DNA of 64,000 bases. Origin: a virus. The stretch lies in the IMG/VR virus record IMGVR_UViG_3300037541_000522, positions 33,812 to 97,811 of that record; one strand, given 5' to 3'. Below, piece after piece: positions 19,396 to 47,398 of the stretch. Position 1 is the stretch's first letter. Each line of letters opens with the position of its first letter. Both the position numbers and the translations under genes were made by a program. The notes beneath the pieces are model-generated. The model searched no databases and was not told where the DNA came from. It saw only the letters and a program-made list of their open reading frames with translations.

Positions 19396-19401
19396 AGGTT
19401 A

Positions 19402-19502: not shown

Positions 19503-19508
19503 ATTAAC

Positions 19509-19625
19509 TTATGCATCTAGTTTGCGATTTAGTTGACCACGAACTTGTTTATGGGTTTTGGTATGTGAACCCGCCCTACGTTTGCGGGCTAGTGCCACAT
19601 ACGGATTACGAGGTTTTAGTTTCAT
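19509..19625 (-). CDS. small basic protein
   Basis: Manual translation MKLKPRNPYVALARKRRAGSHTKTHKQVRGQLNRKLDA; downstream of a TATAAT promoter. Confidence 0.55.
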   Translation of the reverse strand: MKLKPRNPYVALARKRRAGSHTKTHKQVRGQLNRKLDA

Positions 19626-19720
19626 GATATACCTAAATTAAATATAAATTACTTTGCAGTTTTAATCAACGCCAAAGTAATATTATAGCAAACTAGATTG
19701 CATAGTTCAATATTAAAATT

Positions 19721-19936
19721 TTAACTGTCTTGTTCTACATAACGATAGTGTTTAGTTATCTCTGTAAAACATTCTTGAAATTGATCGCGGGCTTGTAGGA
19801 ACTGTGTATAGGCTTGAGCACCGTTAGTTGCTAGAGCAAGACTAGCTGCACCCAAGTCATCTACAGCTTGCATTATGGTTTTGTAATCTTGTTCTTGTTT
19901 TGGGCACCAGTATTTATGAATTTTTAAAGCTGACAT
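19721..19936 (-). CDS. hypothetical protein
   Basis: 71-aa ORF. Confidence 0.55.
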   Translation of the reverse strand: MSALKIHKYWCPKQEQDYKTIMQAVDDLGAASLALATNGAQAYTQFLQARDQFQECFTEITKHYRYVEQDS

Positions 19937-20042
19937 TTTTACTACTTTTTATTTAACTGTAATTTGAGAGCAGTCACACCCGCATGTAATCTACTATAGT
20001 GCAGCCGCCTCATCTATAGTAGTGTTATCGATACCGTCCTCC

Positions 20043-20447
20043 TTATATTACGTTCCAATTTGTTCCGCGGAACACTAGTGTAATTGCTCCATCTGTGGCG
20101 GCTAATATTGTGTAGCTTGCTGCATTTTCAATGGTTTCTGCACCATTGGGCGTAACGGTAATATCGCTGGTTTGTCCAGCTTCGCTTTTGATAACTACTG
20201 TTCTACCGTCTACACCGGCAGTTAGGTTAATAGCAATCGCAGCTCCAGTGCCTACTACGCCTAAGTAGTAATTTGGAGTAGTACCTGCACTGTCTAGGGT
20301 ATAGGGACTTGCTGCGTTGTTGACTAGCTGTGTATTAACAGTTTCATTTCCTACAACAGAAATAACGCCGTTAGTAACTGTAATATTTGATCCAACCTTT
20401 ACTACACCGTAGTTGGTGGTTGAGGTTAATGGTGAATTATATGCCAT
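20043..20447 (-). CDS. fibre-like beta-sandwich protein (cassette gene 5)
   Basis: STTNYGVVKVGS repeat plus paralogous C-terminal domain ending GTNWNVI. Confidence 0.7.
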   Translation of the reverse strand: MAYNSPLTSTTNYGVVKVGSNITVTNGVISVVGNETVNTQLVNNAASPYTLDSAGTTPNYYLGVVGTGAAIAINLTAGVDGRTVVIKSEAGQTSDITVTPNGAETIENAASYTILAATDGAITLVFRGTNWNVI

Positions 20448-20485
20448 GGATTTTCTCCTGTTATTGTTATTGTTGGCACTGAAAA

Positions 20486-20791
20486 TTACCCTGCTATACT
20501 CTTCCAGTTAGTGCCGTCGTAAGTAAGTAGTACGCGGCTATATGGAGTATTTAATATTGCAAAACTTGCACCATCAATGGTTTTTCCACTGGGTGCAGTA
20601 ATAGTTATAGGATTTATTTTTGAATTACCTGAAAAATCTTTGATATAATAAGTTTTACCAGTATTACTTCCAGATAGGTTTGGTAGTACCAGTGATGACG
20701 CAGTTGTTACATTACTAAATATAACCTCATCGTCTTTATCAATTGTGGCGGGTGTTGTTGTAATAGTTCTAGTATCATAAGTTATACTCAT
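20486..20791 (-). CDS. fibre-like beta-sandwich protein (cassette gene 4)
   Basis: LP...GKTYYIKD..G....NPITI....IDG...YDGTNW. Confidence 0.7.
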   Translation of the reverse strand: MSITYDTRTITTTPATIDKDDEVIFSNVTTASSLVLPNLSGSNTGKTYYIKDFSGNSKINPITITAPSGKTIDGASFAILNTPYSRVLLTYDGTNWKSIAG

Positions 20792-20792
20792 A

Positions 20793-21353
20793 TTATCCTA
20801 TCCTTGTTAGTGTAACCTTGACTGCATAACCTGTTGGTCTAACAGGATTTACTTGAGCAGCTAGTGGGCTAAAACCAGTAGTTATATCTGGACTACTCCA
20901 ACAGGTTTGTATGTTATCTCCTGCTGCTAAACTCAGTGTATAATTACCGCTTAAGAATACTATAGATAATACGTTTGTTAGTTGTAACTCTTGTGCTGAG
21001 CCTGTTATATCTACACCGTTTTTTCGTAACCATATACTTAGTGTGGCTGTGCCACCGCTGGTTTTTGTGGTTATAAGTGTAAATATTTGAGTATATATAC
21101 CTGCATTTGCAACAGTGATATTGTTACCGCCGCCGCCTATGCTTACTCCATTAGCTGGGCCTAATGTATCAAATGTAATAACATTAACCTGATTAGCAAC
21201 TGGATTAGTTTGTGGGGTACTACTATTAACAAATCCATATTCGCCAAAACTGCTGCTAGTTGCAGTAACAATACCATTTGTTACACTTAATCCACTTCCT
21301 ACTTTGATTACGCCATAGTCTGTGGTACTTGCTAGTGCTTGATTATAGCTCAT
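20793..21353 (-). CDS. BclA C-terminal/C1q-like domain protein (cassette gene 3)
   Basis: ASTTDYGVIKVGSGL repeat; ITFD..GPANGV, ITVANAGIY, LRKNG, LAAGD pattern. Confidence 0.7.
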   Translation of the reverse strand: MSYNQALASTTDYGVIKVGSGLSVTNGIVTATSSSFGEYGFVNSSTPQTNPVANQVNVITFDTLGPANGVSIGGGGNNITVANAGIYTQIFTLITTKTSGGTATLSIWLRKNGVDITGSAQELQLTNVLSIVFLSGNYTLSLAAGDNIQTCWSSPDITTGFSPLAAQVNPVRPTGYAVKVTLTRIG

Positions 21354-21841
21354 ACTACATTCCATTCTATGCCATTATAGACCAAACCAATACTGCCCCA
21401 GTCTGTGTCTAAAACATAAGTTAATTCGCCATCAATACTACTGCCTGTAGTAGTCACAGTAATTGGATTTGTATTAGCATCCCCCGCACTATCTTTGATA
21501 ATAAACACTTTGCCAAGGGTTCCACTAGGAAGTGTAACCGTTACTGCACCATTATAAATTACGCCTAAAAAGTACTCATCTGTGGTAGCACTATAGGTTG
21601 GCGTATCTATGAGTTGCACAGGCACATCTGCTAGTGAGCCTGGTGGTCCTTGTGGTCCTTCCGGACCCTGAGGACCAGGTGGTCCTGGTGGACCGGGTGG
21701 TCCGGGCGTGCCTATGCCATAGTTGATAAATAAGTCATTATCTTCCATGATTGGAGGCGGCAGGGGCGGAGCAGGAACAAGAGCAAACCCTTGCTTTTGC
21801 CACATAAATGGTGGCAATAAGTGTTGTTTTTGTCTTTGCAC
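21350..21841 (-). CDS. collagen-like protein with C-terminal beta-sandwich (cassette gene 2)
   Basis: GTPGPPGPPGPPGPQGPEGPQGPPGS triplets; Pro-rich N-terminus. Confidence 0.75.
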   Translation of the reverse strand: MQRQKQHLLPPFMWQKQGFALVPAPPLPPPIMEDNDLFINYGIGTPGPPGPPGPPGPQGPEGPQGPPGSLADVPVQLIDTPTYSATTDEYFLGVIYNGAVTVTLPSGTLGKVFIIKDSAGDANTNPITVTTTGSSIDGELTYVLDTDWGSIGLVYNGIEWNVV

Positions 21842-21906
21842 AATAATCTCCTATAAAAAGCGCCCCCAGGTCTTTTGAACGTGGGGGGCCAACCGTTAAT
21901 TAGAGA

Positions 21907-22668
21907 TTATCTAATATTTGTATTTGTGTTTGCTGGATTAGCGGTTTGTGTTCCACTACCAACATTGATTGCTGAGTTAGTATTCTGAATGTTTTGAGCA
22001 AGGGCCCAGAGAGCATTGTAAAGCTGACCGTATTGTTGTTGCTGTTGAGCTTGCTGTTGCATCTGGTTAACAGTGGTTGTTGTATTGACCTCTACACCAC
22101 GTGTACGCTCTGCGGTATCAAAACGAGATTGCAGTGCAATAATGTTTGCATTAGCATCGCTGAGTTGACGGTTTAGAGTGGCTTCGTATTGACTAGTGAT
22201 TAAGGCACGAGTCTTGTCACCATCATTGTTAATGTCTTGTGCCAACTGGTAACGGTTTTCCATTACTTGTTGTTGTACGCCATTAAGTTGCTGTGAAAGC
22301 AGCATAGCGGTCGCATTAACTGCTTCTTTGGTACCGTCAACACGAGTTGCCAATGAGCCTGTTTGTGCATTGAGCTGGTTTGTAAAAGCAATGGTTTGAT
22401 TGGCTTGTGACGCTTCCATGGCTGCTGTACTAACAGCTACTGCCTTGTCTACTTGACCAATGCTCTGCATTAGGCTCATGTTGGCTTGAACTTGCTCAGG
22501 CGGACTACGTAGAGTTGCTCCAGCAGCTGCGCCATCTCCTCCAAAGAGATTACCATTGTTGCGTAGGAGCGAGCCTAGGATAAGACCGCCAATAAGACCG
22601 CCGCCTCCGAAAAGACCGTCGCCGCCGCCACTCATCATCATGCCTGCAGGTGTGATTGATTCTGCCAT
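21907..22668 (-). CDS. Gly-rich-anchored, Gln-rich coiled-coil protein (cassette gene 1)
   Basis: GGGGLIGGLILGSLL N-terminus, long heptad region with DGDKTRALI, poly-Q tail; GGAG RBS. Confidence 0.75.
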   Translation of the reverse strand: MAESITPAGMMMSGGGDGLFGGGGLIGGLILGSLLRNNGNLFGGDGAAAGATLRSPPEQVQANMSLMQSIGQVDKAVAVSTAAMEASQANQTIAFTNQLNAQTGSLATRVDGTKEAVNATAMLLSQQLNGVQQQVMENRYQLAQDINNDGDKTRALITSQYEATLNRQLSDANANIIALQSRFDTAERTRGVEVNTTTTVNQMQQQAQQQQQYGQLYNALWALAQNIQNTNSAINVGSGTQTANPANTNTNIR

Positions 22669-22743
22669 TTTGTTCTCCGTTTTTTATTATTGTTTGTGGA
22701 GTTAAACGGCTACTAGGCCGGCAAGCCTAGCTGCCGACCATAA

Positions 22744-22947
22744 TTAACTAACTATGGGTTTCTCTGTGATTACTTCGTACTCATCTAGGGTAAGGCACTC
22801 GTCGTGTTTACTTAACCACATCAAGTTTTCCATCATATAGTTTATATGATCTTGCGTTACCTTAGGGTCTTTGATATGTTCTAAGAGCTTTTTCATGAGT
22901 TTAGGGCTAACCTCAATCTCTACGAACTTGTAATATTTATCGCCCAT
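22744..22947 (-). CDS. small helical protein, paralog of the adjacent gene
   Basis: IEVSPKLMKKLLE...LTLDEYEVI aligns with the neighbour. Confidence 0.6.
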   Translation of the reverse strand: MGDKYYKFVEIEVSPKLMKKLLEHIKDPKVTQDHINYMMENLMWLSKHDECLTLDEYEVITEKPIVS

Positions 22948-23150
22948 TAAAAACCCCCTCTATCAACTATTGTGTCATAGTGTTTCATAGTGAGGAGAGT
23001 ATTTGTTTGCATTAGCCTGATTAGGTGTTCTGCTACAAAGTGCAAATCTTTATCGTGTTTAGCATCTTCGCGCGCAAATTCCATCAATCTAAGCATTAGC
23101 GGAACATCGACTGAAATAATGTCTAATCCGTTATATGCCATCATACACAT
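22947..23150 (-). CDS. small helical protein
   Basis: ISVDVPLMLRLMEFAREDA...LTMKHYDTIV. Confidence 0.65.
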   Translation of the reverse strand: MCMMAYNGLDIISVDVPLMLRLMEFAREDAKHDKDLHFVAEHLIRLMQTNTLLTMKHYDTIVDRGGF

Positions 23151-23208
23151 CTCCGTGTGTTTAAATTCCCCTTACGGGGGCTGTTTGGGTTGGTTCCCAA
23201 ATCTTTTA

Positions 23209-23283
23209 TGGTGGACCGCCGGAGGATCGAACTCCGACCTATGCCGTGCAAAGGCACCGTGCTCCCATTATCACTAGCAGCCC
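23209..23283 (-). tRNA. tRNA-Ala (TGC)
   Basis: G3:U70, TT-TGC-AC, CCA. Confidence 0.92.
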
Positions 23284-23601
23284 TTAATAATAATATACGT
23301 GTGGTTTACGTCCTACTGCGGGCGGATCTACTAGCTCTAGGTCTGTGGTCTTGAGCACTGCGTGCTCCCATACACGGCCACGACGACGCTGTGGACGATT
23401 CATAGTAATACGAGTCCACCAGCTAGGTGTTGTGCTATACCAGCGAAAATGACAGTAGTTTCTACGCTTTTTAGTTTTCTTGCCCGCAACTTGTATGTAA
23501 CGAAAACCAAAGCTACTAGTATCTACACGAATAGCATCGTATAAGTAGTGATCTTCTGGATACGCTACAGTGTGCGGTTTATCTTTTAGAGTACGACTCA
23601 T
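23284..23601 (-). CDS. basic hypothetical protein
   Basis: Start MSRTLKDKP after GGAG; PSWWTR..MNRPQR. Confidence 0.65.
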   Translation of the reverse strand: MSRTLKDKPHTVAYPEDHYLYDAIRVDTSSFGFRYIQVAGKKTKKRRNYCHFRWYSTTPSWWTRITMNRPQRRRGRVWEHAVLKTTDLELVDPPAVGRKPHVYYY

Positions 23602-23611
23602 TATTATCTCC

Positions 23612-23653
23612 AAAAAACCATAGTTCAAATCACGAGTATGAGTTGAACTATGG
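23612..23653 (-). terminator. intrinsic terminator
   Basis: CCATAGTTCAA/TTGAACTATGG 11-bp stem + T6. Confidence 0.7.
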
Positions 23654-24013
23654 CCCCACTCCCTAAAGTGGCTTCATAGTGTCTTGTTACTATTGGGCGA
23701 CGGCCCGCAGGTCTAGAATGTCCAGTTACGTAGTCCACCATCACTAGTAACTTTTATCGCCCTGTTGCGCGGTATAGTCTAGGGATACGACTATGTAAGC
23801 GTGGCGGGAACTATTATATGCAGGTGCTCATTCCTGCTTGCTCTAGACTTCACTGTTCACGTTGTACAGTCGAATATCTTTACGGGGTACGACCCCAGCC
23901 TAGTCACCAGCCTAGAGTTTATAGGTTCAGCGTGAGCAGCGCAATTACGGATGTTGACTAGAAATAAGTTTTCCCAGTTCAGGCTTTAGAGTGCCTTATC
24001 GGGCTAGTCAACA
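23654..24013 (-). ncRNA. candidate large structured ncRNA
   Basis: No ORF of 60 aa or more; many helices and crossing pairings (see findings). Confidence 0.55.
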
Positions 24014-24114
24014 ACCATATTGAAACACACTGTGGTCTATACATACTTTCCTTGAGAGGTATGTGGTGTACCAGCCCTGATCTTTTTAGGGATTTTAATG
24101 TGCTTCAATATGGT
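24014..24114 (-). ncRNA. stem-enclosed RNA element after tRNA-Tyr
   Basis: 16-bp closing stem ACCATATTGAAGCACA/TGTGTTTCAATATGGT with internal hairpins. Confidence 0.5.
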
Positions 24115-24197
24115 GGATGCGGATGGATTCGAACCACCAGCGTTTCTAGTGTCACGAGTTTACAGCCCGCTGCCGTCAACCATTTGGCTACGCATCC
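24111..24197 (-). tRNA. tRNA-Tyr (GTA)
   Basis: CT-GTA-AA, variable arm, CCA. Confidence 0.92.
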
Positions 24198-24383
24198 ATA
24201 GTAAAGTATTTTGCTTACTGCCTGCTCGCGCATGAGTTAATCTTCCTGCCATATGATCCCGCTAAGGATCGGCTACGATTAACTTCAGCCCGCTTTAGGG
24301 ATATACCGGCCGGGTACCCTTATTTCTCTGGGCTGCAATGTCCTGTTTATTTCACCTAGGACGAACAAAATACTTAACTATGG
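24196..24383 (-). ncRNA. stem-enclosed multibranch RNA between tRNA-Leu and tRNA-Tyr
   Basis: 18-nt closing stem with 1 mismatch; four internal helices. Confidence 0.6.
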
Positions 24384-24463
24384 TGCCCTGGGACGGACTC
24401 GAACCGTCACGCTCGCGCACTGGCTTCTAAGACCAGCGTGTCTACCAATTCCACCACCTGGGC
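24381..24463 (-). tRNA. tRNA-Leu (TAG)
   Basis: CT-TAG-AA, variable arm, A73-CCA. Confidence 0.93.
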
Positions 24464-24556
24464 ATGGTAACGATCTAAGGTTTTAATCGTTGTGGCTCAT
24501 GCACCCCAAGCTGACGCTTGTTGAGCTTTTGCGGTTTGTGCCGCCCCATATATAAT

Positions 24557-24585
24557 ATTATACAGTATTAGTTAGCGTGAATCAA
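24557..24585 (-). promoter_or_regulatory. sigma70 promoter of the tRNA/ncRNA transcript
   Basis: TTGATT-N17-TATAAT. Confidence 0.7.
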
Positions 24586-24678
24586 GACAAGAAATTAAAC
24601 GGTAATAGTTGTATTGCTATTTCTTTCTTAATTCACACTATACACATATTATATCACGTTTACTGGTCTAGTGCAAGT

Positions 24679-25680
24679 CTAAATTTTCATTTGCTTGACA
24701 AAAGCAGCCTGAGCAAGGTTTTTCTCTTTGGACTCTAGCATAATGTCGCTATACTCTAGAAAACTACCGGCCCACTCGTTACAAGCTAGGTTCCAGTAGT
24801 AGTCACTATGTGCACGCAATTTAGCTCGCGTGAATCCTTGTGTTAACAATTCCTGCAGGTTGGGTCGGGCATTGCGATCATGTTCGACTACAACATCTTC
24901 ACGACTCAAGCTGTAGTGGATTACTGGCCTAACACCTCGCCAAGATTCCCATAACCGCTGTACACGAGGATCGGTTGGCTCAATGTATTCCCCACTCATA
25001 ATCCAGTGATGGTGAATGTCTAGGACTAGTGCACAGTGATCTACTAGCTCTAGACTAGCATTAATACCCCAGCTAAACTCAGCGTTCTCAATGGTAAGCA
25101 CATTGCGAGCTTCACGACTAAGACGCTTAAGTGCTTGTTTGATACCTTCTGGACCTTGTTTGCCACCAATATGTACGTTGCACTTAAAGTCTTGAAATTC
25201 ACGACCATAACCCATGTAGCGAATAAGGTCTACATGATACTCAAACTCTTGAATAGAGTTTTCAACAACATTTGGGTTTTCACTAGCTAGTACACAAAAC
25301 TGACCGGGATGAAAACTAAGTCGAATATCGTGTTGTCTAGCTAGGTTGCCAATCATATCAAATCTAGCCTCTAGCTCGCGAACTACGTCTGGCTCCCAGT
25401 ACCACCACGACCAGTCGTCGTGGGTATATGCTGGAAGCAAGTCGCTGCTTAGGCGGAACATACGCTCTTGTGCTGGCTTTTTAGCTACCCACTCTAGTTG
25501 CCTGATTATGGCGTTAGTATTCTTGTCCAGAATACCCCATAGCTTGGCTACAGCTACATCTCGGGTCTGATTATTTAGCCAAGTAATTGTGGTAGTGCCG
25601 GTGTTTAGGCCTGGAGCTGCTTTGTCATGGCTTTCTTGAATCTTGCAAGCAAAACCAACTCTGGGGTGTTGTTTGAACAT
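24679..25680 (-). CDS. uvsE: UV-damage endonuclease (UvsE/UvdE)
   Basis: RVGFAC, FRLSSDLLP, RLSFHPGQF, IEN, LDIHHH, HYS, RAHSDY, MLESKEK. Confidence 0.93.
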   Translation of the reverse strand: MFKQHPRVGFACKIQESHDKAAPGLNTGTTTITWLNNQTRDVAVAKLWGILDKNTNAIIRQLEWVAKKPAQERMFRLSSDLLPAYTHDDWSWWYWEPDVVRELEARFDMIGNLARQHDIRLSFHPGQFCVLASENPNVVENSIQEFEYHVDLIRYMGYGREFQDFKCNVHIGGKQGPEGIKQALKRLSREARNVLTIENAEFSWGINASLELVDHCALVLDIHHHWIMSGEYIEPTDPRVQRLWESWRGVRPVIHYSLSREDVVVEHDRNARPNLQELLTQGFTRAKLRAHSDYYWNLACNEWAGSFLEYSDIMLESKEKNLAQAAFVKQMKI

Positions 25681-25868
25681 TATCGTGTGTTTTTATAGTT
25701 ACGGACTGCTTCGGCGTCCAAGCTAGCATAGACTCTGAATTTGTCTTTGCCGACTTGGTCGTAGAGGTCGCTAGCCAGTTTGTACTGCTTTTCGGTGGTT
25801 TCAAGTCCCAGTGGCTCATATCTGCTCGCAAAACATTCCAACAAAAATTCACGGGTATAGCCTGCCAT
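25680..25868 (-). CDS. hypothetical protein
   Basis: Start MAGYTREF with GGAG RBS, after a promoter. Confidence 0.6.
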   Translation of the reverse strand: MAGYTREFLLECFASRYEPLGLETTEKQYKLASDLYDQVGKDKFRVYASLDAEAVRNYKNTR

Positions 25869-26023
25869 GTTTTCTTCTCCAAATGAAAAGATATTATAGC
25901 ACACCGTATCCACTAAGTCAAGATTAAAAATAACCCAACTACACACCCCACAACAATAATTAGTCGCTCTACTACGGTAAAACTTCCACAATGTATAAAG
26001 TTGTGTAATCGGATATTCATAGC

Positions 26024-26881
26024 CTACTCCAAGTCAATCCAGACTTTACTGCTAGCCTGTTCAAAACGCTCAGCCTGTCGCTCGTAACCAGCATATCCAC
26101 GAGGATTACTTACCACACGGCAACTACCGATCTGGTAGTCATTCATCGAATGCACATGACCATGTGCCCATAGCTTAACCTGCGGATTGTCTAGGATGAT
26201 GTTAGTAAGATCACTGTAGTATGCATGGTTGATATAACCATGTACGTGCTCACGGTACTCACTAGCAATTGACTCGTAGCTAGGAGCATGGTGAGTCATC
26301 ACAATAGTTTTGTGGTTGGGGTAGGCTAGTAGAAATTCTTCTAGTCGAGCACGGCTATACCGGTGCTCTTGCTCACTATCACTAGGGGTGAACTTGTTAG
26401 TCCAGTAGCCACCACCAGCTCCCTCTACAAACCTAGCAGGCTCGTGTTTGATTACTTGGTAATCACTCATGAGTCCACCAATAGCATGGGCAACTGTGGG
26501 ATTGCCACGATCATTATCCGTCCACATGGTAGCGCCCCAGATCAGGTAATCTTCAATCTTAACATAACTGTTTTGTAGAATAGTTACGTTAGGGGGTAGA
26601 AGGGGTTCAATACGCTTACGCGCAGTTGAGAAATCATGCTGGTAGTACTCGTGATTGCCAAACACGTATAGGACCTGTGCATACTTAGGCAGTTGGGTAT
26701 CACAAAACTTGTGGTACGCATCTAGAGTACTCATACCACGACCCACATTGTGTGCTAGTCGGATATGTCCTGCCTCTAAGAGGTCACCGCATAGGAGCAG
26801 GAGATCACCACCCGGCAGGACTAGTGTGTCGTGTCCGGTATCAAAGTTAATGTGTAGGTCGCTAGCGATATGCACTCGCAT
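26024..26881 (-). CDS. metallophosphoesterase
   Basis: SDLH, GD, GNHE, THHAP, HGHVH, NPRGY. Confidence 0.9.
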   Translation of the reverse strand: MRVHIASDLHINFDTGHDTLVLPGGDLLLLCGDLLEAGHIRLAHNVGRGMSTLDAYHKFCDTQLPKYAQVLYVFGNHEYYQHDFSTARKRIEPLLPPNVTILQNSYVKIEDYLIWGATMWTDNDRGNPTVAHAIGGLMSDYQVIKHEPARFVEGAGGGYWTNKFTPSDSEQEHRYSRARLEEFLLAYPNHKTIVMTHHAPSYESIASEYREHVHGYINHAYYSDLTNIILDNPQVKLWAHGHVHSMNDYQIGSCRVVSNPRGYAGYERQAERFEQASSKVWIDLE

Positions 26882-26952
26882 GATGTTCTCTGTGTGAATT
26901 ATTTATAAAATATTATATAATTTTTGAGATTTAGGGTCAAGATAGAAATCTT

Positions 26953-27027
26953 TGGCCCGGCCGGAGGGAATCGAACCCCCATTCGCACTTTAGAAGAATG
27001 CTGTCCTATCCGTTGAACGACGGCCAG
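26953..27027 (-). tRNA. tRNA-Arg (TCT)
   Basis: CT-TCT-AA, CCA. Confidence 0.9.
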
Positions 27028-35084: not shown

Positions 35085-35324
35085 GTTTTGTGAGCACAAC
35101 TTGTACCGACTTGCCGCGGCTTAGGGTCAGAACCCCAACAAATCTGCTCTTGACACATATAGCTTTAGCACTGTATAATATTGGCGCCCTACCGCAAATA
35201 AAAAAGCCCACCAGTTTGCACTGGTGGGCTCGGTTCCTGACCCTAAACCGTAGTCTGCTGGGCATGGGGCACCAGTTTTCGGGTTTGGGTTTCGCTCTTG
35301 GTGAGCTCATCAGAGGAATAGGGG

Positions 35325-35673: not shown

Positions 35674-35982
35674 TCAGGCTTTGAGCACTTCGACCAGGCG
35701 GGTCAAAACATCCTGATTTGCTTTTTCCAGCGATTCAAACTGTTCACTATTCCGATCACACACCTTAGCAATGCGCTCGACCAGCTCAGCTTTGGTAACC
35801 CGGGCCGCCTGTGTAGTCCGGGTCTTCGCTACGTACACACCCTCGCGCGAAAGTTTAGCAACCACACTACGCACACTTTTACCAACCTGCTCAGCCAGTT
35901 GCTCAACACTTACACCTTGCTGATACTTCTGGACCAGTTCCTGAACTTGTTCAGGGGTATAGTTCATTACTTTGTCAGTCAT
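35674..35982 (-). CDS. T5 A2-like protein (paralog 2)
   Basis: NYTPEQ, GKSVRSVVAKLSREGVY, SLEKAN. Confidence 0.8.
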   Translation of the reverse strand: MTDKVMNYTPEQVQELVQKYQQGVSVEQLAEQVGKSVRSVVAKLSREGVYVAKTRTTQAARVTKAELVERIAKVCDRNSEQFESLEKANQDVLTRLVEVLKA

Positions 35983-36197
35983 TTGGGTTCTCCAATCAAT
36001 CAATATAAATATTATACAGGGATTAGGCTTGGGAATCAAGTCAAGATTTTTTAGGCTTCAACCAGTCAGGTAAATCGCCTACGGTATCCGGTGGCACAAA
36101 TTTGTTCATGTTGTTCCTTTAATCGCTGACTCAATATAAATATTATACATGGCTTAGCGGTCGCGGGCAAGACTAGATTTTTCGATTTGCCACTTTA

Positions 36198-36379
36198 GCA
36201 CTGGCGCAGGAAGACCAAGTTTTTGCACTTGCCAAGGTTTTGCACTGGCGCACGCGCAAGATTTTGCACTTGCCAAGGTTTTGCACTGGCGCAACCTGCC
36301 CTGGAGGTTAGTAAGTGCTCACTAACTTGGTCCGGTTAGTAAGTGCTCACTAACTTGGTCCGGTTAGTAAGTGCTCACT
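36198..36379. repeat. direct-repeat block resembling a T5 injection-stop signal
   Basis: 32-bp repeat x2 (36221, 36262); 28-bp repeat x2 plus a partial third (36306, 36334, 36362), each containing GTTAGT-N8-ACTAAC. Confidence 0.75.
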
Positions 36380-36388
36380 TCGCTAGGC

Positions 36389-36649
36389 TGGCACGAATCT
36401 TGCTAGTGGCACGAATTTTGCTTGGTGCGAATGAGAATCATTCTCATCTAGGCCTGGCACGAATTTTGCTTTGTGGTAAAAAAGCCACGGTTACAAATTG
36501 TTACAATTCTGCGCTTGACACGGGCCGATTTTATATGATAAAATCGGCGCCAGCGCCTGGCACAGTTTTTGCCTTAGCAAGAACTGTGCCAGGCTGGGCC
36601 GGGCCGAAAAAAAGCCCCGACCGGAGTCGGGGCTGGCACAATCCTTGCC
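36389..36649. promoter_or_regulatory. cluster of six sigma54 -24/-12 consensus sites plus a Fur box
   Basis: TGGCAC-N5-TTGC at 36389, 36407, 36455, 36558, 36634 (+) and 36591-36576 (-); ATGAGAATCATTCTCAT at 36431. Confidence 0.7.
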
Positions 36650-36652: not shown

Positions 36653-36979
36653 TTAGATAGGCTTGGAATTGGCAAGCGCATCAAAAATCGCCTTCAGCGC
36701 GCGCTTGTTCGCTTTGGTAAGCGAGTCGGTATCAGCTTCGCTCAGGTTCAGAATTCGACCGATAGCATCCGCAGTCATATCCTTTTTCTGAACGGGTTCG
36801 CCGGTTTTCGTGGTATAAACCTTTTTCTGGTAAACACCCTCGCGCGACAATTTTGCCACAATCGAACGAACCGATTTGCCGAGATTTTCGGCAATGCTTT
36901 CCACGGTAACACCCGCGAGATAATCCGCGACAACCTGCGCGGTTTGCTCGGGAGTGTAGTTCACGGCTTTTTCTGCCAT
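36653..36979 (-). CDS. T5 A2-like protein (paralog 3)
   Basis: MAEKAVNYTPEQT, KSVRSIVAKLSREGVYQKK, DSLTKANK. Confidence 0.8.
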   Translation of the reverse strand: MAEKAVNYTPEQTAQVVADYLAGVTVESIAENLGKSVRSIVAKLSREGVYQKKVYTTKTGEPVQKKDMTADAIGRILNLSEADTDSLTKANKRALKAIFDALANSKPI

Positions 36980-37128: not shown

Positions 37129-37252
37129 TTGACACGGGCAAATTTTATATGATAAAATTTGGCGCCAGCAAGGTGTGATGTTATAACATCACACGGGTGT
37201 GATGTTATAACATCACATAGGCCTGGCAAAGTAAAACCCCTTTCGGGGTTTT
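37129..37252 (+). promoter_or_regulatory. repeat module: promoter-palindrome + tandem Zur-box palindromes + terminator
   Basis: TTGACA-N18-TAAAAT, GGCGCC, 2x TGTGATGTTATAACATCACA, AAAACCCC-TTTC-GGGGTTTT. Confidence 0.7.
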
Positions 37253-37254
37253 AT

Positions 37255-37599
37255 TTATTTATTGAATCCTGCAATATTAACCTGATAATGTCGCCGGAAA
37301 TATTTTCGCCACCGATCAAAATAACCTGATGGAGAATGATTTACTGGAAGATTATTTTCAGATTGCCAAGCGTGAATATATTCATGCACAATGGTTGCAA
37401 ATAATTCCATGGGATTCCAGATTTCAGCGCGTGAAACTTGGATTAGGTGATAATCGAATTCATCTTCCCATAATCCTACACAATAAACACCGCCGAGATT
37501 TATAGTCTTGCAAACCTGTAAAACTACGGGTTTGCGGATTTGAATTTCGGTTTCCGCAATTCGCTGGAATAGTTCAATGTCTGATTTGTGAAACTTCAT
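37255..37599 (-). CDS. HExxH zinc-metalloprotease-like protein
   Basis: ATIVHEYIHAWQ...H. Confidence 0.7.
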   Translation of the reverse strand: MKFHKSDIELFQRIAETEIQIRKPVVLQVCKTINLGGVYCVGLWEDEFDYHLIQVSRAEIWNPMELFATIVHEYIHAWQSENNLPVNHSPSGYFDRWRKYFRRHYQVNIAGFNK

Positions 37600-38715: not shown

Positions 38716-38853
38716 TTGACACCGGCCCAATTTTAATAGTAAAATTGGCGCCAGCATGGTGTGATGTTATAACATAACATTGTTTCATGTGAAACAATGT
38801 TATGTTATAACATCACATGGCCTGGGCAAAATAATAGGGGCGTATGCCCCTAT
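38716..38853 (+). promoter_or_regulatory. repeat module with a 58-bp palindrome: Zur boxes flanking a parS-like site
   Basis: 28-bp perfect arms 38760-38817; centre TGTTTCATGTGAAACA (38781-38796). Confidence 0.7.
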
Positions 38854-38965: not shown

Positions 38966-39439
38966 TTAGTGTCCCTGCTTGCTTGGAATGTAAACTCCAC
39001 GGATACCGAAACGGTCGCAGACTGCTTTAAGGTAGTCCACATTATCCTCATAAAAAACAACATCGTCAGTCTGGAAGTTGACAAGGTTGAAAAACTTTGC
39101 TAGTCCACCGATTTTGAGGGTTCGACCTGATTGCGTATCGCCCTGTTTACGCGAAACGATATAATCGGGTTCGCCTAGAGTGTCGCGGATAAATTCTCGA
39201 TCCGGTTCGCCTAGTACGCGCGCAGTCGCAATTATGGTATACGTTTCAGGATCGTCAAGGTCTTGCCAGTATTCTTCGACCAGCGGTAAGAGTGAATCGT
39301 CAAGCGCGCGGTATTCATTCTCGCGCCAGTAGTCTAGGTCGATACGCTCGCCACGCTCATCGATGACGGTCCGGTAACGATGCAGCGAGCATACAATGGT
39401 TCCGTCCATGTCGTAAATTCTAACGCGCTTGATTGCCAT
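38966..39439 (-). CDS. HAD-family phosphatase (possible functional analogue of T5 dmp)
   Basis: YDMDGT motif I, ATAR motif II, K, FYEDN motif IV. Confidence 0.8.
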   Translation of the reverse strand: MAIKRVRIYDMDGTIVCSLHRYRTVIDERGERIDLDYWRENEYRALDDSLLPLVEEYWQDLDDPETYTIIATARVLGEPDREFIRDTLGEPDYIVSRKQGDTQSGRTLKIGGLAKFFNLVNFQTDDVVFYEDNVDYLKAVCDRFGIRGVYIPSKQGH

Positions 39440-39780: not shown

Positions 39781-39883
39781 GAGTAAGATAGTACAGGAAA
39801 ATCGCGCCTAGTGCAAGCCAGGTGCCATTGTATTTTTCTATCGACACGCTCACGCCCATAGAAAAATTTTTTTGCAAAAACCC

Positions 39884-39955
39884 TTGACACCCGCCAATTT
39901 TATATGATAAAATTGGCGCCCAGGTGTTGCGTTTCCGCAACACCTGGGTTTACCC
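39884..39955 (+). promoter_or_regulatory. repeat module with TGT-N12-ACA palindrome
   Basis: TTGACA-N18-TAAAAT, GGCGCC, CCCAGGTGTTGCG-TTTC-CGCAACACCTGGG. Confidence 0.65.
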
Positions 39956-41686: not shown

Positions 41687-42154
41687 ATGAACCAACTACC
41701 CACCGACACCATCAACATAAGCCCCGAATTATTGGAGGTGGCTAATCTCTACCTAGAACACCAAAACACCCAGGAGGTAGCCACTGTCCTCCAGCTAGAA
41801 CCCCACGACGTTGCCCAGATCCTAAAGCGTCCAGATGTGAAATCCTACATTAACCAGGTATTCTTCGACTTAGGCTTCAACAACCGGTTTCGTATGCGCC
41901 GTGCCATGGACGCACTTATTAGTCAAAAGTTTCAGGAGCTGGAGGAGTCGCAAACGGGCAGCACCAAAGACATATCGGAACTACTTGCACTCTCACACAA
42001 AATGAGCATGGAATTGCTAGACCGTGAGATTCAGCTGGAGAAATTACGGCAAGGTGGGCCTAAAAATCAGGTTAATGTGCAGATCAACGAGGGCGGTGAC
42101 GGTACACGATATGGCCAGCTAATCCAGAAATTGCTGGGAGACAAACTTGCTTAA
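41687..42154 (+). CDS. terS: terminase small subunit
   Basis: ISPELLEVANLYL HTH; position before terL. Confidence 0.85.
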   Translation: MNQLPTDTINISPELLEVANLYLEHQNTQEVATVLQLEPHDVAQILKRPDVKSYINQVFFDLGFNNRFRMRRAMDALISQKFQELEESQTGSTKDISELLALSHKMSMELLDREIQLEKLRQGGPKNQVNVQINEGGDGTRYGQLIQKLLGDKLA

Positions 42155-43460
42155 GGTGTCGAGACCCGATGTAGAGTGGGACGGCATTCAAGAATTCGAC
42201 CCACATACCCGTTTTATTAAACTACCAATCGAAAACTATCTTAAGCTCATCGGAGCTTGGGATCAGCTAAACCGCGCGCAGCTGGCACTAATCAATGCGG
42301 TCAACAATCCACAATACCGTTTTGTTGTAGCCGCACTAGCACGCCGTCTAGGCAAAACCTATATTGCAAATATCATTGCGCAACTAGTAAGCCTAGTGCC
42401 AAACTGCAATGTCCTAGTGATCAGTCCCAACTATAATCTGTCCAGCATTAGTTTTGAACTGCAACGCAGGTTTATCAAACACTTTGAGTTGGAGGTGGAG
42501 CGGGATAACCTAAAGGACCGGGTAATTGAGCTGAGCAACGGGTCTACAGTCAGGATGGGTTCGCTGTCCACAGTAGATAGCACAGTTGGTAGATCGTACC
42601 AGCTTATACTCTTTGACGAGGCTGCCTTAGGCGACGGCGGTGAGGAGGCATTTAATATCCAGCTGCGTCCGACCCTAGACCGGGTAGATGCTAAAGCTAT
42701 ATTTATCTCCACACCTCGTGGCAAGCAAAACTGGTTCTCCCGATTCTGGGATCGTGGGTTCTCGGCAGAATTTCCGGAGTGGTGTTCACTCTGGGCAGAT
42801 TATGAAGAAAATCCCAGGATGAGCCCTAAAGATATTGAAGAAGCCCGCAGGTCTATGAGCAAGCAGGAGTTTGAGCAGGAATACCTTGCGTCATTCACTA
42901 CATTTGAGGGTCAGATTTATGAGTTACGGGATGATAACATCGTGCCTTGGGACCCCAAACTGCAGCTGGATCAGAGTACTCAGTTTATTGCGGGCTGCGA
43001 CCCGGGATACCGAGACCCCACAGCCTTCCTAGTAGTAGCCTACCTGCCGGATCCACGTGATGCAGGCGAGGATAGGTTCTGGGTTATACGTGAGTACGAG
43101 GAGGCCGAGCAGACTACCCAGTATCATGCCCAACAGATTAAAAACATGGCAGACGAGTTCCAGATTGAACTAATCTTTATAGATAGTGCGGCAGCACAGT
43201 TTGCTCAAGACCTTGCCTACCAGTATGATATTCCGACTGTGCGTGCTCGTAAAGATGTACTTCCCGGCATCGCGTACGTGCAAACCCTAGTCGCACAGGG
43301 TAAGCTATGGGTAGATCCGGGCTGTACCAAGACCGTAGAGGCACTCAACCAGTACAAGTGGGATGATCGCGAGGGGCTTACACGTGAGAAGCCTAAGCAT
43401 GATCGGTACTCTCACCTTATGGATGCGCTCCGCTACTGCTTATACTCGTTTACTAGATAA
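42147..43460 (+). CDS. terL: terminase large subunit
   Basis: ARRLGKT, LILFDEAA, FISTPRG, GCDPG, HLMDALRY. Confidence 0.95.
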   Translation: MLKVSRPDVEWDGIQEFDPHTRFIKLPIENYLKLIGAWDQLNRAQLALINAVNNPQYRFVVAALARRLGKTYIANIIAQLVSLVPNCNVLVISPNYNLSSISFELQRRFIKHFELEVERDNLKDRVIELSNGSTVRMGSLSTVDSTVGRSYQLILFDEAALGDGGEEAFNIQLRPTLDRVDAKAIFISTPRGKQNWFSRFWDRGFSAEFPEWCSLWADYEENPRMSPKDIEEARRSMSKQEFEQEYLASFTTFEGQIYELRDDNIVPWDPKLQLDQSTQFIAGCDPGYRDPTAFLVVAYLPDPRDAGEDRFWVIREYEEAEQTTQYHAQQIKNMADEFQIELIFIDSAAAQFAQDLAYQYDIPTVRARKDVLPGIAYVQTLVAQGKLWVDPGCTKTVEALNQYKWDDREGLTREKPKHDRYSHLMDALRYCLYSFTR

Positions 43461-45463: not shown

Positions 45464-47398
45464 ATGGTAGACAAAAATAAGATCCTGTACTTTAACAGTG
45501 TCTTTACTAAAGCTGAGCCGCTACCAGCAGAACCAGACGTAATTGAGATTAGTGGATATGCATCAACTGTGGATGTTGACAGACACGGCGATGTAATCCC
45601 CACCTCAGTTTGGGAAAGAGGCTTAGAGAACTACATAAAAAATCCTGTTATCCTAGCATTTCATGACCATACTCAACCAGTTGGTCGTATGACTGAGCAC
45701 AAAGTAGATGCAAAAGGATTATGGATTAAAGCTAGGATCTCAAAAGCTGCTGAAAAAGTATACCAGCTTATCAAAGACGAAGTTTTAACAGCATTTTCAG
45801 TTGGATTTAGAATTAAAGATGCGGAATATAATACAGCCGCAGAAGTTTTCCTAGTCAAAGACTTAGAATTACATGAAATTTCGGTAGTTTCGGTACCAGC
45901 AAATCAAAACACACTTTTTAATCTTTCAAAATCGTTTAACTCCGTTACGGAGTATCGTGAATTTATCGCGCAATTTGCACCCCAAAGCGAGTCAGCTAAA
46001 GGGCTAGACACCACTAGGCAAGCAAAGAGCACAACCAAAGAGGAATTGGACATGACTCCAGAAGAATTAAAGCAATTACTAGCCCAAACAGCTCAAGACG
46101 CTGCACAGCAAGCTGCTAAGGCTATCAAAGAAGAACAAGCTCGTGTAGAAGCTGAGAAAGCTGCTCGTGAACAAGCAGAAGCTGAGCTACAAGCACGTAT
46201 CAAAGCAGCTGTTGCTGCTGTAACTCCTACTGAAACTGGTGCAGAAAAGCTACTAGCCGAAGTAGAGAAGCGCTTCCAAGAACAAGCAGAAAGCACCAAG
46301 AGTGTTATCACTGGCCTAGAAGCTGCCCTAAAAGAAAAAGCACAAGAGCTAGAAGCTATTCAGAAAAGCAAGATGCAATTCGTTGATGGCAAACAAGGCG
46401 AAATGAGCTATGCCGACAAAGAGAAAGCAGTTCTCTTAGCCAAGATGAGCGGCAAAGCAATCGACCAGACACGTCTAGGTCGTGAACTAGTTCAAAAGTA
46501 CGGTGGTACAGGTCAAAGCCCTCACCAGCCAAGCGCAACTTGGGAACTAGAAGTTAGCCTAGCAATGGAAAACGAAGTTCGCCGTCGCCTAGTTGTTGCT
46601 CCTACCCTACGTAGTATTGCAATGCAAACTAACGTAATGACTATTCCTGTTAACCCCGAAGCAGGTGTTGCAAGTTGGGTTCAGAATAGCCAGTTTGGTG
46701 CCTCAGCTTCAGCTGGTAATACTGCTGTTCACGCTCTTAAAGAGATCACTCTTAACGCATACAAAGTTGCTACCAACGAGTATGTAGCCTTCGAAGAAGA
46801 AGAAGATGCTCTAATAGCAATTATGCCTGTTATCCGTGACGCAATGGTTCGCCGTGTTGCTCGTGCTGTTGATCGCGCAATGCTACGTGGTGCCGGTGCT
46901 GGTGCAGATCCTGTTAAAGGTCTTGCCACATACGACGAAACAAGCGCAGTTAATCTAGACATTAGCGATAACGCTAAGCTAACAGTTGCACTTCTACGTG
47001 CAATGCGTCGTGACCTAGGTGCTTGGGGCTTAGATCCTGCTGAGCTAGTTTATATTGTAAGCACAGACGGTTACTACGATCTCTTAGACGACGATAACTT
47101 CCTAACTGTTGATAAAGTTGGCACACAAGCTACTTTACTAACAGGTCAAATCGGTAGCGTTGCTAATACTCCAGTTCTAGTAAGTGCTGAGTTTGCTGAT
47201 AAAGCCGCTGCTGCTGTTGGAGCAATCTGCTTTGCACCAGGTAACTTCCTAGTTGGTAATCAGCGTGGTCTACGTGTTGACACCGATGACCTAGTTGAAA
47301 CACAACGTCGCGTAATGGTTGCCAGCCTACGCACTGGCATGACCCAAGTTACTACTAACCTTGGTCAGGGCGTAAGCGCTCTACGTTACGTAGCCTAA
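45464..47398 (+). CDS. prohead protease fused in frame to HK97-fold major capsid protein
   Basis: GYAST..DRHGD, FHDH, FSVGF, EISVVSVPAN, then coiled-coil scaffold and capsid body; internal SD-ATG at 46052. Confidence 0.92.
   Translation: MVDKNKILYFNSVFTKAEPLPAEPDVIEISGYASTVDVDRHGDVIPTSVWERGLENYIKNPVILAFHDHTQPVGRMTEHKVDAKGLWIKARISKAAEKVYQLIKDEVLTAFSVGFRIKDAEYNTAAEVFLVKDLELHEISVVSVPANQNTLFNLSKSFNSVTEYREFIAQFAPQSESAKGLDTTRQAKSTTKEELDMTPEELKQLLAQTAQDAAQQAAKAIKEEQARVEAEKAAREQAEAELQARIKAAVAAVTPTETGAEKLLAEVEKRFQEQAESTKSVITGLEAALKEKAQELEAIQKSKMQFVDGKQGEMSYADKEKAVLLAKMSGKAIDQTRLGRELVQKYGGTGQSPHQPSATWELEVSLAMENEVRRRLVVAPTLRSIAMQTNVMTIPVNPEAGVASWVQNSQFGASASAGNTAVHALKEITLNAYKVATNEYVAFEEEEDALIAIMPVIRDAMVRRVARAVDRAMLRGAGAGADPVKGLATYDETSAVNLDISDNAKLTVALLRAMRRDLGAWGLDPAELVYIVSTDGYYDLLDDDNFLTVDKVGTQATLLTGQIGSVANTPVLVSAEFADKAAAAVGAICFAPGNFLVGNQRGLRVDTDDLVETQRRVMVASLRTGMTQVTTNLGQGVSALRYVA

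What the first reader, a model, noticed from the sequence alone, without database searches (positions are those of the whole stretch)
36389..36649. Six sigma54 (-24/-12) consensus sites in 260 bp with no gene to drive
Seen: TGGCACGAATCTTGCT (36389), TGGCACGAATTTTGCT (36407, 36455), TGGCACAGTTTTTGCC (36558), TGGCACAGTTCTTGCT (minus, 36591-36576) and TGGCACAATCCTTGCC (36634). A seventh, TGGCACCTGGCTTGCA (minus, 39827-39812), overlaps a sigma70 -35. Established: the RpoN consensus is TGGCACG-N4-TTGC, and sigma54 holoenzyme forms stable closed complexes without an activator. Inference: an RNAP-sigma54 sink or protein roadblock beside the injection-stop-like repeats.
Basis: partly seen in the sequence, partly recalled or inferred. 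Interest (0 to 1): 0.75.

Follow-up and report, generated by a model that had tools for sequence, protein, structure and literature searches.

The report
Sigma-54 site cluster, T5-like phage
A distant relative of phage T5 keeps six textbook binding sites for the host's sigma-54 RNA polymerase in a gene-free, repeat-rich spacer of its pre-early-like region. Cultured T5-like phages of Vibrio and Aeromonas carry the same sites only in that region, so these phages probably park or use this host enzyme there, which can now be tested in the laboratory.

Summary
There are seven exact -24/-12 motifs in 64 kb (0.15 expected), six of them within 260 bp, and none elsewhere in the 97.8-kb phage record.

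The six are under selection. Across six close relatives the two motif blocks differ in 2.4% of cells, against about 21% for the 5-nt spacer and the flanks. Distant relatives keep face-to-face pairs with different spacers. The seventh site is not conserved.

The sites belong to a phage-wide class that this scan has flagged before on other DNA:
- Tandem pairs occur in at least 120 viral contigs, against 9 for a reversed control.
- Face-to-face pairs occur in at least 117, against 1.
- Unconstrained positions follow the sigma-54 consensus.
- The two arms of a pair do not share spacers, so the pairs are not hairpins.
- No phage activator gene is visible.

New here is the setting. The cluster lies in a T5-like pre-early region with A2-like and dmp-like genes, about 5 kb from terS, and it encloses the palindrome that is repeated in the T5 injection-stop signal. 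In five cultured T5-like phages of Vibrio and Aeromonas, every such site lies in that same region, often beside DnaA boxes.

Best reading: these are host sigma-54 holoenzyme docking sites in the cis-acting pre-early repeat region. Whether they are silent blocks or activator-dependent promoters is open.

The parts
36389..36403 (+). sigma-54-type site 1 (-24/-12 motif)
   Evidence: Exact match. First unit of the 18-bp tandem repeat. Blocks invariant in relatives.
36407..36421 (+). sigma-54-type site 2
   Evidence: Relative L083/L123 has one extra 18-bp unit.
36430..36448 (.). iss-type palindrome (Fur-box-like), one mismatch to the unit repeated in the T5 iss
   Evidence: The only copy in the window. 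Four copies inside the annotated T5 iss and seven in Vibrio phage PG07 pre-early spacers.
36455..36469 (+). sigma-54-type site 3
   Evidence: Replaced by a - strand sigma-70-like promoter in L127 and L128.
36515..36544 (+). strong sigma-70-type promoter P1 (11 of 12 matches, extended -10), antisense to the A2-like gene 2
   Evidence: The same module recurs at 35150, 37129, 38716 and 39884 and across the phage family.
36555..36594 (.). face-to-face pair of sigma-54-type sites 4 (+, 36558-36572) and 5 (-, 36577-36591), starting about 7 nt after the P1 start point
   Evidence: (I3). The pair is inverted as a unit in L029, L083, L126 and L127. The same layout occurs in at least 117 viral contigs.
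36613..36634 (-). intrinsic terminator of the A2-like gene 2
36634..36648 (+). sigma-54-type site 6, between the stop codon and the terminator of the A2-like gene 2
   Evidence: In L126-L128 the -12 block keeps TGC while the preceding T varies.
36306..36389 (.). three 28-bp repeats, each holding a 6-N8-6 dyad; possible protein or enhancer sites
   Evidence: D3. Copy number varies in relatives. Three homologous dyads sit beside two sigma-54-type sites in L152.
36216..36293 (.). two 41-bp repeats that look like promoter-module copies lacking the -10 element
   Evidence: D7, D9. Related units occur in L144, L152 and L160.
35674..35982 (-). A2-like DNA-binding protein, paralogue 1
   Evidence: PHROG 323 and 1725. 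Weak match to the GcrA N-terminal HTH.
36653..36979 (-). A2-like DNA-binding protein, paralogue 2
   Evidence: 37% identity over 106 aa to Vibrio phage Cody gp12, the gene in the A2 position, E 8e-7. PHROG hits.
38966..39439 (-). dmp-like (deoxynucleoside monophosphatase-like) gene
   Evidence: 34% identity to Cody dmp, E 3e-8. PHROG 415.
39813..39827 (-). seventh motif match, overlapping a weak sigma-70 -35; not conserved
41687..43460 (+). terS-terL, T5-like
   Evidence: TerL Pfam domains. 47-50% identity to Demerecviridae TerL.

Best explanation
The six sites are genuine recognition sites for the host's sigma-54 (RpoN) RNA polymerase. They are kept by selection as part of the cis-acting, untranslated repeat region of a T5-like pre-early (first-step-transfer-type) segment.

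Most likely they act as docking sites. Sigma-54 holoenzyme binds without an activator as a stable closed complex (established knowledge). A complex on the face-to-face pair would cover the start region of the strong sigma-70 promoter P1. A complex on site 6 would cover the 3' end of the A2-like gene 2. The result would be a protein block or gate on this spacer, comparable to the DnaA boxes in the T5 injection-stop region, rather than a promoter for a protein gene.

Shown: the sites, their selective conservation, the phage-wide class, the T5-like setting, and the positional conservation in cultured T5-like phages. Inferred: that sigma-54 is the binder, and that the complexes are non-productive.
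For: 1. Non-random cluster: 7 matches against 0.15 expected, and none elsewhere in the record.
2. Selection pattern fits a two-block reader. Among six close relatives the blocks differ in 8 of 330 cells and GG/GC in 1 of 132. The 5-nt spacer differs in 35 of 165 and the flanks in 67 of 330. Unit copy number changes from 3 to 4 with the blocks intact.
3. Relatives whose A2-like gene is only 41-72% identical keep face-to-face pairs with other spacers.
4. Phage-wide class:
   - Tandem pairs occur in at least 120 viral contigs against 9 for the reversed control.
   - Face-to-face pairs occur in at least 117 against 1.
   - Free positions follow the published sigma-54 consensus: pyrimidine before the -24 block 81%, G or A after it 95%, then a purine 71%, A or T after the -12 block 83%.
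   - The class spans at least three terminase types.
   - Only 3 of 116 loci encode the window's HTH family. A factor shared by the hosts therefore fits better than a phage protein.
5. Not hairpins: in 99 distinct pairs the spacers of the two arms agree at 1.5 of 5 positions.
6. Rare in cells: 48 triple arrays in 596 Gb of genomes, about 40 of them coding tandem repeats, against 84 in viral contigs.
7. T5-like setting: TerL, A2-like gene, dmp-like gene, iss-type palindrome inside the cluster.
8. In the cultured phages PG07, 70E35.2, JSF10, Cody and Akh-2, all 17 distinct sites lie 4-11 kb from terS on the pre-early side, several next to DnaA boxes. The reversed control gives 1 hit in these five genomes (2 in all seven records searched).
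9. Geometry argues against ordinary promoters. Neighbouring sites are separated by gaps of only 3-4 bp, no supported + strand gene follows, and no activator, sigma-54 DNA-binding domain or AAA gene is found in the record.
10. Precedent: phage YuA depends on host sigma-54 (PMC5053324; bioRxiv 10.1101/2023.10.13.562163).
Against: - There is no binding, ChIP or transcript evidence.
- The host is unknown. It is inferred to be a betaproteobacterium only from the phage's beta-type tmRNA, and its rpoN gene was not checked.
- Two complete relatives have no site anywhere, and several relatives have the same A2-like gene pair without sites. The element is therefore dispensable.
- Within this phage family the sites always lie between A2-like paralogues, which also fits a phage binder.
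- Three dyad repeats just upstream look like an enhancer, which favours productive promoters.
- In PG07, Cody and Akh-2 some sites do point at pre-early operons.
- Conservation counts are by sequence, not by independent event.
Confidence: 0.42

Rival explanations
1. The sites are working, activator-dependent sigma-54 promoters. A host enhancer-binding protein, perhaps bound to the three 28-bp dyads, fires them. The products would be non-coding or antisense RNAs across the P1 region and the A2-like gene 2, plus a leftward transcript from site 5 towards the A2-like gene 1.
For: - The match to the promoter consensus is perfect.
- Three dyad repeats lie 0-85 bp upstream of site 1, and homologous dyads accompany the sites in L152.
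- Site 5 is co-oriented with the - strand genes.
- In PG07 the face-to-face pair sits in the divergent pre-early control region. In Cody and Akh-2 one site each lies 320-440 nt upstream of a co-oriented operon.
- YuA uses sigma-54 promoters (PMC5053324).
Against: - No activator gene is found in this record or in five other array-bearing records.
- Five of the six sites face away from all supported genes.
- An 18-bp spacing and the face-to-face overlap put each start point inside a neighbouring site.
- In L152 the dyads lie downstream of the sites.
- The dyads match no activator site that I could name.
Confidence: 0.25
2. The motif is bound by a phage protein, for example one of the A2-like HTH paralogues that flank it. 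The likeness to the sigma-54 consensus is then coincidence or mimicry.
For: - Within this family the sites always lie in the spacer between two A2-like genes.
- A paralogue at least 59% identical to paralogue 1 is found in 8 of the 12 site-bearing loci, and 8 of the 9 loci with such a paralogue have sites.
- T5 A2 is a DNA-binding dimer needed for second-step transfer (10.1101/866236).
- Other spacers of the region carry other palindromes, as if each had its own binder.
Against: - Only 3 of 116 array-bearing viral loci encode this family, yet the motif and its consensus at the free positions are the same across at least three terminase types.
- The site is asymmetric and has two blocks spanning 15 bp, which is unlike a dimeric HTH operator.
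- The gap between the arms of face-to-face pairs varies from 3 to 7 bp.
- L144, L150, L157 and L185 have the gene pair without sites.
- T5 has A2 but no site.
Confidence: 0.18
3. The cluster is a titrating sink that drains the host's sigma-54 pool and so shuts down sigma-54 regulons. This is the first half of the first reader's reading.
For: - There are six high-quality sites per genome copy, multiplied by replication.
- Closed complexes are stable without an activator (established knowledge).
- Other phages carry up to 12-26 sites (earlier scan notes).
Against: - Cultured T5-like relatives keep only 2-6 sites, always at one genome position. That points to a local role, not a bulk one.
- Complete relatives have none.
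- Adjacent sites cannot be filled by holoenzyme at the same time.
Confidence: 0.1
4. The cluster is a repeat family or an RNA/DNA hairpin with no specific reader, and its consensus resembles the sigma-54 motif by chance.
For: - The copies are partly duplicates.
- The pair folds into a strong 5' hairpin of the P1 transcript, z = -6.8.
- This is a very large scan, so some look-alikes are expected.
Against: - The blocks are about 9 times better conserved than the spacers and flanks.
- The same blocks appear with other spacers in distant relatives.
- Enrichment over the reversed controls is 13-fold or more and 100-fold or more.
- The arms of the pairs are not complementary across the class.
Confidence: 0.04

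Closest known systems
Bacterial sigma-54 (RpoN) -24/-12 promoters
   Same: The GG and GC elements are exactly 10 bp apart. The extended consensus is matched at constrained and free positions.
   Different: There is no activator gene and no supported gene downstream. Sites are packed 18 bp apart or face to face. They lie on phage DNA, in a non-coding repeat region.
Sigma-54-dependent promoters of Pseudomonas phage YuA (Ceyssens 2008, as cited in PMC5053324 and bioRxiv 10.1101/2023.10.13.562163)
   Same: A phage relies on host sigma-54 recognition sites.
   Different: From my memory of the abstract (the paper is not held), the YuA sites are single promoters in front of late genes, confirmed by promoter trap and in an rpoN mutant. 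Here the sites form a cluster in the pre-early-like region and face away from the genes.
Untranslated repeat regions and injection-stop signal of T5-like phages (Davison, bioRxiv 10.1101/866236; annotation of NC_005859)
   Same: The setting is pre-early, with A2-like and dmp-like genes near terS. The spacer holds dense direct and inverted repeats. The palindromic unit is shared. The repeats carry sites for a host DNA-binding protein (DnaA) and have a proposed non-transcriptional role.
   Different: This window has no DnaA boxes and no A1 homologue. Its genes are divergent from terS. No terminal repeat or two-step transfer has been shown for this phage.
Silent intragenic sigma-54 binding sites of E. 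coli (PMC4591121)
   Same: These are sigma-54 sites whose occupancy need not lead to an mRNA for a downstream gene.
   Different: The E. coli sites are single and scattered inside genes. The phage sites are clustered, intergenic and position-specific.
Sigma-54-site arrays of uncultured phages noted earlier in this scan
   Same: They show tandem and face-to-face pairs, no activator gene, a position often upstream of the terminase genes, and rarity in bacterial genomes. I re-derived each of these points independently here.
   Different: This case is a roughly 98-kb T5-like phage, and it links the class to the first-step-transfer region of cultured Demerecviridae.

Membership tests
sigma-54-dependent promoter | GG at -24 and GC at -12 with fixed spacing, within the extended consensus | tested here: met
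   All six sites match exactly. A pyrimidine precedes the -24 block in 5 of 6, a purine occupies both of the next two positions in 6 of 6, and A or T follows the -12 block in 4 of 6.
sigma-54-dependent promoter | Recognition blocks conserved in relatives | tested here: met
   Blocks differ in 2.4% of cells against 21% for the spacer. GG/GC differ in 1 of 132. Distant relatives keep pairs.
sigma-54-dependent promoter | An AAA+ enhancer-binding activator and its upstream binding sites | tested here: inconclusive
   No PF00158, PF00004 or PF04552 match in the record. Three dyad repeats lie upstream, but their binder is unknown. A host activator cannot be examined.
sigma-54-dependent promoter | A gene or defined transcript downstream | tested here: not met
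   No supported + strand gene lies between 36.4 and 41.2 kb. Only antisense or non-coding products are possible. Site 5 faces - strand genes about 470 nt away.
sigma-54-dependent promoter | Binding by sigma-54 holoenzyme and dependence on rpoN | not testable with these tools
   No host is known and no RNA or ChIP data exist.
T5-like first-step-transfer untranslated repeat region / iss | Lies among pre-early genes (dmp, A1, A2) next to the terminase end of the genome | tested here: inconclusive
   A2-like gene, E 8e-7. dmp-like gene, E 3e-8. TerL 47-50% identical. The cluster is 5 kb from terS. No A1 homologue was found, and gene orientation differs from T5 and Cody.
T5-like first-step-transfer untranslated repeat region / iss | Untranslated block of direct repeats, inverted repeats and palindromes, including the unit repeated in the T5 iss | tested here: met
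   One search gives 14 direct and 12 inverted repeat families in 1.5 kb. The palindrome at 36430-36448 is one mismatch from the unit found 4 times in the T5 iss and 7 times in PG07.
T5-like first-step-transfer untranslated repeat region / iss | Paired DnaA boxes | tested here: not met
   No perfect box in the window and no one-mismatch box in 35.6-38.4 kb.
T5-like first-step-transfer untranslated repeat region / iss | Lies in a long terminal repeat and halts DNA transfer | not testable with these tools
   The record is listed as linear with no end repeats. Relatives G006 and G010 carry assembly-type direct terminal repeats only.
phage sigma-54-site arrays (class seen in this scan) | Tandem and/or face-to-face -24/-12 sites, a few bp apart, in phage non-coding DNA, with free spacers | tested here: met
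   Window gaps of 3 and 4 bp. Class gaps are 3-7 bp (convergent), 5-10 bp (divergent) and a peak at 11-12 bp (tandem). Spacers are independent between arms.

The most novel reading that the evidence does not exclude
In T5-like phages outside the enterobacterial clade, closed complexes of host sigma-54 RNA polymerase, alone or together with DnaA on adjacent boxes, are a building block of the nucleoprotein structure on the pre-early repeat region. That structure would pause or anchor the incoming DNA, as the injection-stop signal does, or guard the genome end. A transcription factor would then be borrowed as a structural DNA clamp.
Probability: 0.15. Interest if true: 0.85.

Novelty: new variant of a known kind. 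Interest (0 to 1): 0.66.

Why it matters
Sigma-54 is known as an activator-dependent promoter factor of bacteria. Its use by phages is documented essentially for one phage, YuA. Clusters of sigma-54 sites in phage non-coding DNA, without an activator and often in unproductive geometry, were not described in the papers I could search. They nevertheless occur in at least a hundred viral contigs.

This window ties that class to a long-standing open problem, the nature of the cis-acting injection-stop and pre-early repeat region of T5-like phages. It also shows that cultured phages with known hosts carry the same sites at the same place. These are Vibrio phages PG07, 70E35.2, JSF10 and Cody, and Aeromonas phage Akh-2. 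The question can therefore be taken to the bench now, with footprinting, RpoN ChIP, site mutants, and measurements of first-step transfer.

Tried and rejected
- Nucleotide and protein searches of the spacer and the A2-like gene against cultured phages gave no match.
- Hairpin reading: the pair folds well in this phage, but across the class the arms do not share spacers. I rejected it as the general function.
- Phage HTH family as a universal binder: only 3 of 116 loci encode it.
- DnaA boxes in the window: none. LexA-type boxes in the region: none of note.
- Searches of the record for an activator, a sigma-54 DNA-binding domain or an AAA gene found nothing. The same was true for the activator in five other array-bearing records.
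- TerS pac-site reading of the class: arrays lie upstream of terL in 48 of 117 loci. I set it aside because unrelated terminase types would not share one motif.
- An 11-mer repeat count on the relatives' spacers was uninformative.
- Ceyssens 2008 is not held. One term-format error occurred in each of two paper tools.
- No fold or complex job was run, because none would bear on a DNA-site question.
- A Salmonella screen found rpoN mutants resistant to a T5-like phage. The authors explain this indirectly through RpoS and glutamine, and rpoS deletion restores infection (PMC8744999). Enterobacterial T5-likes lack the sites, so I do not count this as support.

Full report
OBSERVATION. The pattern TGGCAC-N5-TTGC occurs seven times in the window. 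Shuffles give 0.15 on average and none reaches seven. Six copies lie in 36389-36648. The rest of the 97.8-kb virus record has none, and its reversed control gives zero. Relaxing the pattern by one mismatch adds only scattered hits.

ANATOMY. The cluster fills a non-coding spacer of about 670 bp between two paralogous small HTH genes on the - strand, 35674-35982 and 36653-36979. Reading left to right on the + strand, the spacer contains the following:
- two - strand sigma-70-type promoters;
- two 41-bp repeats;
- three 28-bp repeats, each holding a dyad;
- sites 1 and 2 as an 18-bp tandem unit;
- a 19-bp palindrome at 36430-36448;
- site 3;
- a strong + strand sigma-70-type promoter, P1, at 36515-36544;
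- sites 4 and 5, about 7 nt after the expected P1 start, forming the two arms of a face-to-face inverted repeat;
- the - strand terminator of the right-hand HTH gene;
- site 6, between that terminator and the gene's stop codon.

All genes with family support between 35.6 and 41.1 kb are on the - strand. The five + strand sites therefore face no supported gene, and anything they start is antisense. P1 belongs to a promoter-plus-palindrome module that recurs at 35150, 37129, 38716 and 39884 and throughout the phage family.

CONSERVATION. Sixty-nine related loci were fetched through the HTH gene.
- The six closest relatives (89-100% identity) keep the cluster.
- Across orthologous copies the two motif blocks differ in 8 of 330 cells and the GG/GC dinucleotides in 1 of 132. 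The 5-nt spacer differs in 35 of 165 and the flanks in 67 of 330.
- The number of 18-bp units varies from 3 to 4, and the face-to-face pair is inverted as a unit in several relatives. The blocks are untouched in both cases.
- Relatives at 72%, 57% and 41% identity (L160, L181, L191) carry face-to-face pairs with quite different spacers. L152 carries two tandem sites on the other strand, next to three homologous dyads.
- The seventh site loses its -24 block in three of the same relatives. It serves as an internal contrast and is probably a chance match on a sigma-70 -35 element.
- The element is dispensable. Most relatives at 65-83% identity lack it, and two complete genomes have no site at all. 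Several relatives have the same HTH gene pair with other palindromes in the spacer.

A PHAGE-WIDE CLASS. This scan has noted the class before on other DNA. I re-tested its main claims.
- Face-to-face pairs occur in at least 117 contigs, against 1.
- Triple arrays occur in 84 viral contigs, against 48 in a 596-Gb collection of prokaryote genomes. About 40 of those 48 are coding tandem repeats, with periods in multiples of three inside long frames.
- In 502 sites from 116 loci, the positions left free by the search follow the published sigma-54 consensus. A pyrimidine precedes the -24 block in 81%, G or A follows it in 95%, the next base is a purine in 71%, and A or T follows the -12 block in 83%.
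- In 99 distinct face-to-face pairs the spacers of the two arms agree at 1.5 of 5 positions, close to chance. The pairs are therefore two independent two-block sites, not hairpins.
- Sites are packed tightly. Convergent gaps are 3-7 bp, divergent gaps 5-10 bp, and tandem gaps peak at 11-12 bp. That is too close for several holoenzymes to bind side by side.
- The most widely shared neighbouring gene is the large terminase, of at least three types, with arrays 0.4-1.8 kb upstream.
- Only 3 of 116 loci encode the window's HTH family.
- No sigma-54 activator domain is found in this record or in five others.
- A reader common to many hosts, with a specificity conserved across phyla, explains this best.

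THE T5-LIKE SETTING (new here).
- TerL is 47-50% identical to that of Demerecviridae.
- The HTH gene is 37% identical over 106 residues to Vibrio phage Cody gp12, which occupies the A2 position (E 8e-7). The match to T5 A2 itself is not significant (E 0.18).
- ORF 38966-39439 resembles Cody's dmp (E 3e-8).
- No A1 homologue was found.
- The 19-bp palindrome inside the cluster is, with one mismatch, the unit that occurs four times inside the annotated T5 injection-stop signal and seven times in the pre-early spacers of Vibrio phage PG07. The window has only this one copy.
- Davison (bioRxiv 10.1101/866236) describes these conserved untranslated repeat regions and their eight DnaA boxes. He proposes that membrane-bound DnaA halts DNA transfer there. 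He does not mention sigma-54 or Fur.

- PG07 has 5 sites, 70E35.2 has 6, JSF10 has 2, Cody has 2 (each present in both terminal repeats), and Akh-2 has 2. T5 and a Klebsiella phage have none.
- The reversed control gives two hits across all seven records, only one of them in a site-bearing genome.
- All 17 distinct sites lie 4-11 kb from terS on the pre-early side. This window's cluster lies 5.0-5.3 kb from terS.
- Where annotation exists (Cody), the two sites lie in untranslated spacers. For Akh-2 and PG07 not every site was checked against the annotation, and one PG07 site falls inside annotated coding sequence.
- PG07 has a face-to-face pair next to the shared palindrome. PG07, Cody and Akh-2 each have a site within about 10-40 bp of DnaA boxes.
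- One unrelated small phage, L198, has seven DnaA boxes abutting its array.

MECHANISM. From established knowledge, sigma-54 holoenzyme forms a stable closed complex without an activator and protects roughly -34 to -5.
- A complex on site 4 or 5 would cover the first 30 nt or so downstream of the P1 start. It would therefore exclude sigma-70 polymerase at P1, or be excluded by it.
- A complex on site 6 would sit on the 3' end and the terminator of the A2-like gene.
- Sites 1-3 lie 45-130 bp upstream of the P1 -35 element.

I favour docking sites that build a protein block or gate on this cis-acting spacer (confidence 0.42). The reasons are the unproductive geometry, the missing activator and missing genes, the fixed genome position in cultured relatives, and the company of DnaA boxes.

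The main rival is that they are real activator-dependent promoters for non-coding or antisense RNAs, with the three dyads as enhancer (0.25). Some sites in PG07, Cody and Akh-2 do face pre-early operons. A phage-encoded binder such as the A2-like proteins remains possible (0.18). A bulk sink (0.10) fits poorly with 2-6 sites held at one position. Chance or a bare hairpin is unlikely (0.04).

CAVEATS.
- The host is unknown. The phage's tmRNA is of the betaproteobacterial two-piece type, and such hosts generally have rpoN (my knowledge, not tested).
- Hosts of the viral contigs are unknown.
- The conservation figures count sequences, not independent events.
- Many array-bearing contigs belong to a few phage lineages.
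- No expression or binding data could be obtained.
- The literature searches cover open-access papers only. The YuA details rest on citing papers and on my memory of its abstract.

Noticed in passing
window 35150-35179, 36515-36544, 37129-37158, 38716-38745, 39884-39913 (+): A repeated module points against the - strand genes. It has a consensus -35, an 18-nt spacer, a -10 embedded in an A/T palindrome, then GGCGCC and a further palindrome. It is conserved across the whole phage family, and the two halves of the -10 palindrome change together.
   Followed up: partly
window 37165-37260 (+): The module at 37129 is followed by two identical 22-bp palindromes and a bidirectional terminator. This could be a small RNA of about 95 nt or a pair of operators.
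   Followed up: no
NC_005859 (T5) 9405-9710 and 6213-6228; Cody 588-603; Akh-2 about 500 and 4200-4380: The T5-type iss regions hold near-consensus look-alikes of host Fur boxes (the repeated palindromic unit) and of LexA boxes (one identical 16-mer in T5 and Cody), beside the published DnaA boxes. The Davison preprint does not mention Fur.
   Followed up: partly
window 36555-36594 versus L029, L083, L126, L127: The face-to-face pair, with its loop and its one arm mismatch, is inverted as a unit between close relatives, as expected from template switching at a palindrome. The centres of the 28-bp dyads flip in the same way.
   Followed up: partly
window 36216-36293: The 41-bp repeats resemble copies of the promoter module without its -10 element. 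Related units occur in L144, L152 and L160.
   Followed up: no
window 36066-36110 (-): A 14-codon ORF (after the ATG at 36110) with its own copy of the - strand promoter. It is present in L123, L125, L126 and L128 and deleted in L124 and L127.
   Followed up: no
window 12975-27027 (-): A cluster of 18-20 tRNA genes plus a two-piece, betaproteobacterial-type tmRNA whose tag ends in ALAA. It hints at the host class.
   Followed up: partly
L198 10190-10460: An unrelated small phage has seven perfect DnaA boxes directly abutting five sigma-54-type sites, in a 1.3-kb gene-free region upstream of its terminase operon.
   Followed up: partly
window 45464-47398 (+): Prohead protease and major capsid domains lie in one 644-aa ORF, unlike T5, where they are separate genes (the T5 comparison is from my knowledge).
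   Followed up: no
window 38760-38817: A 58-bp near-perfect palindrome follows the module at 38716. Its outer arms match the 22-bp palindromes at 37172-37217.
   Followed up: no
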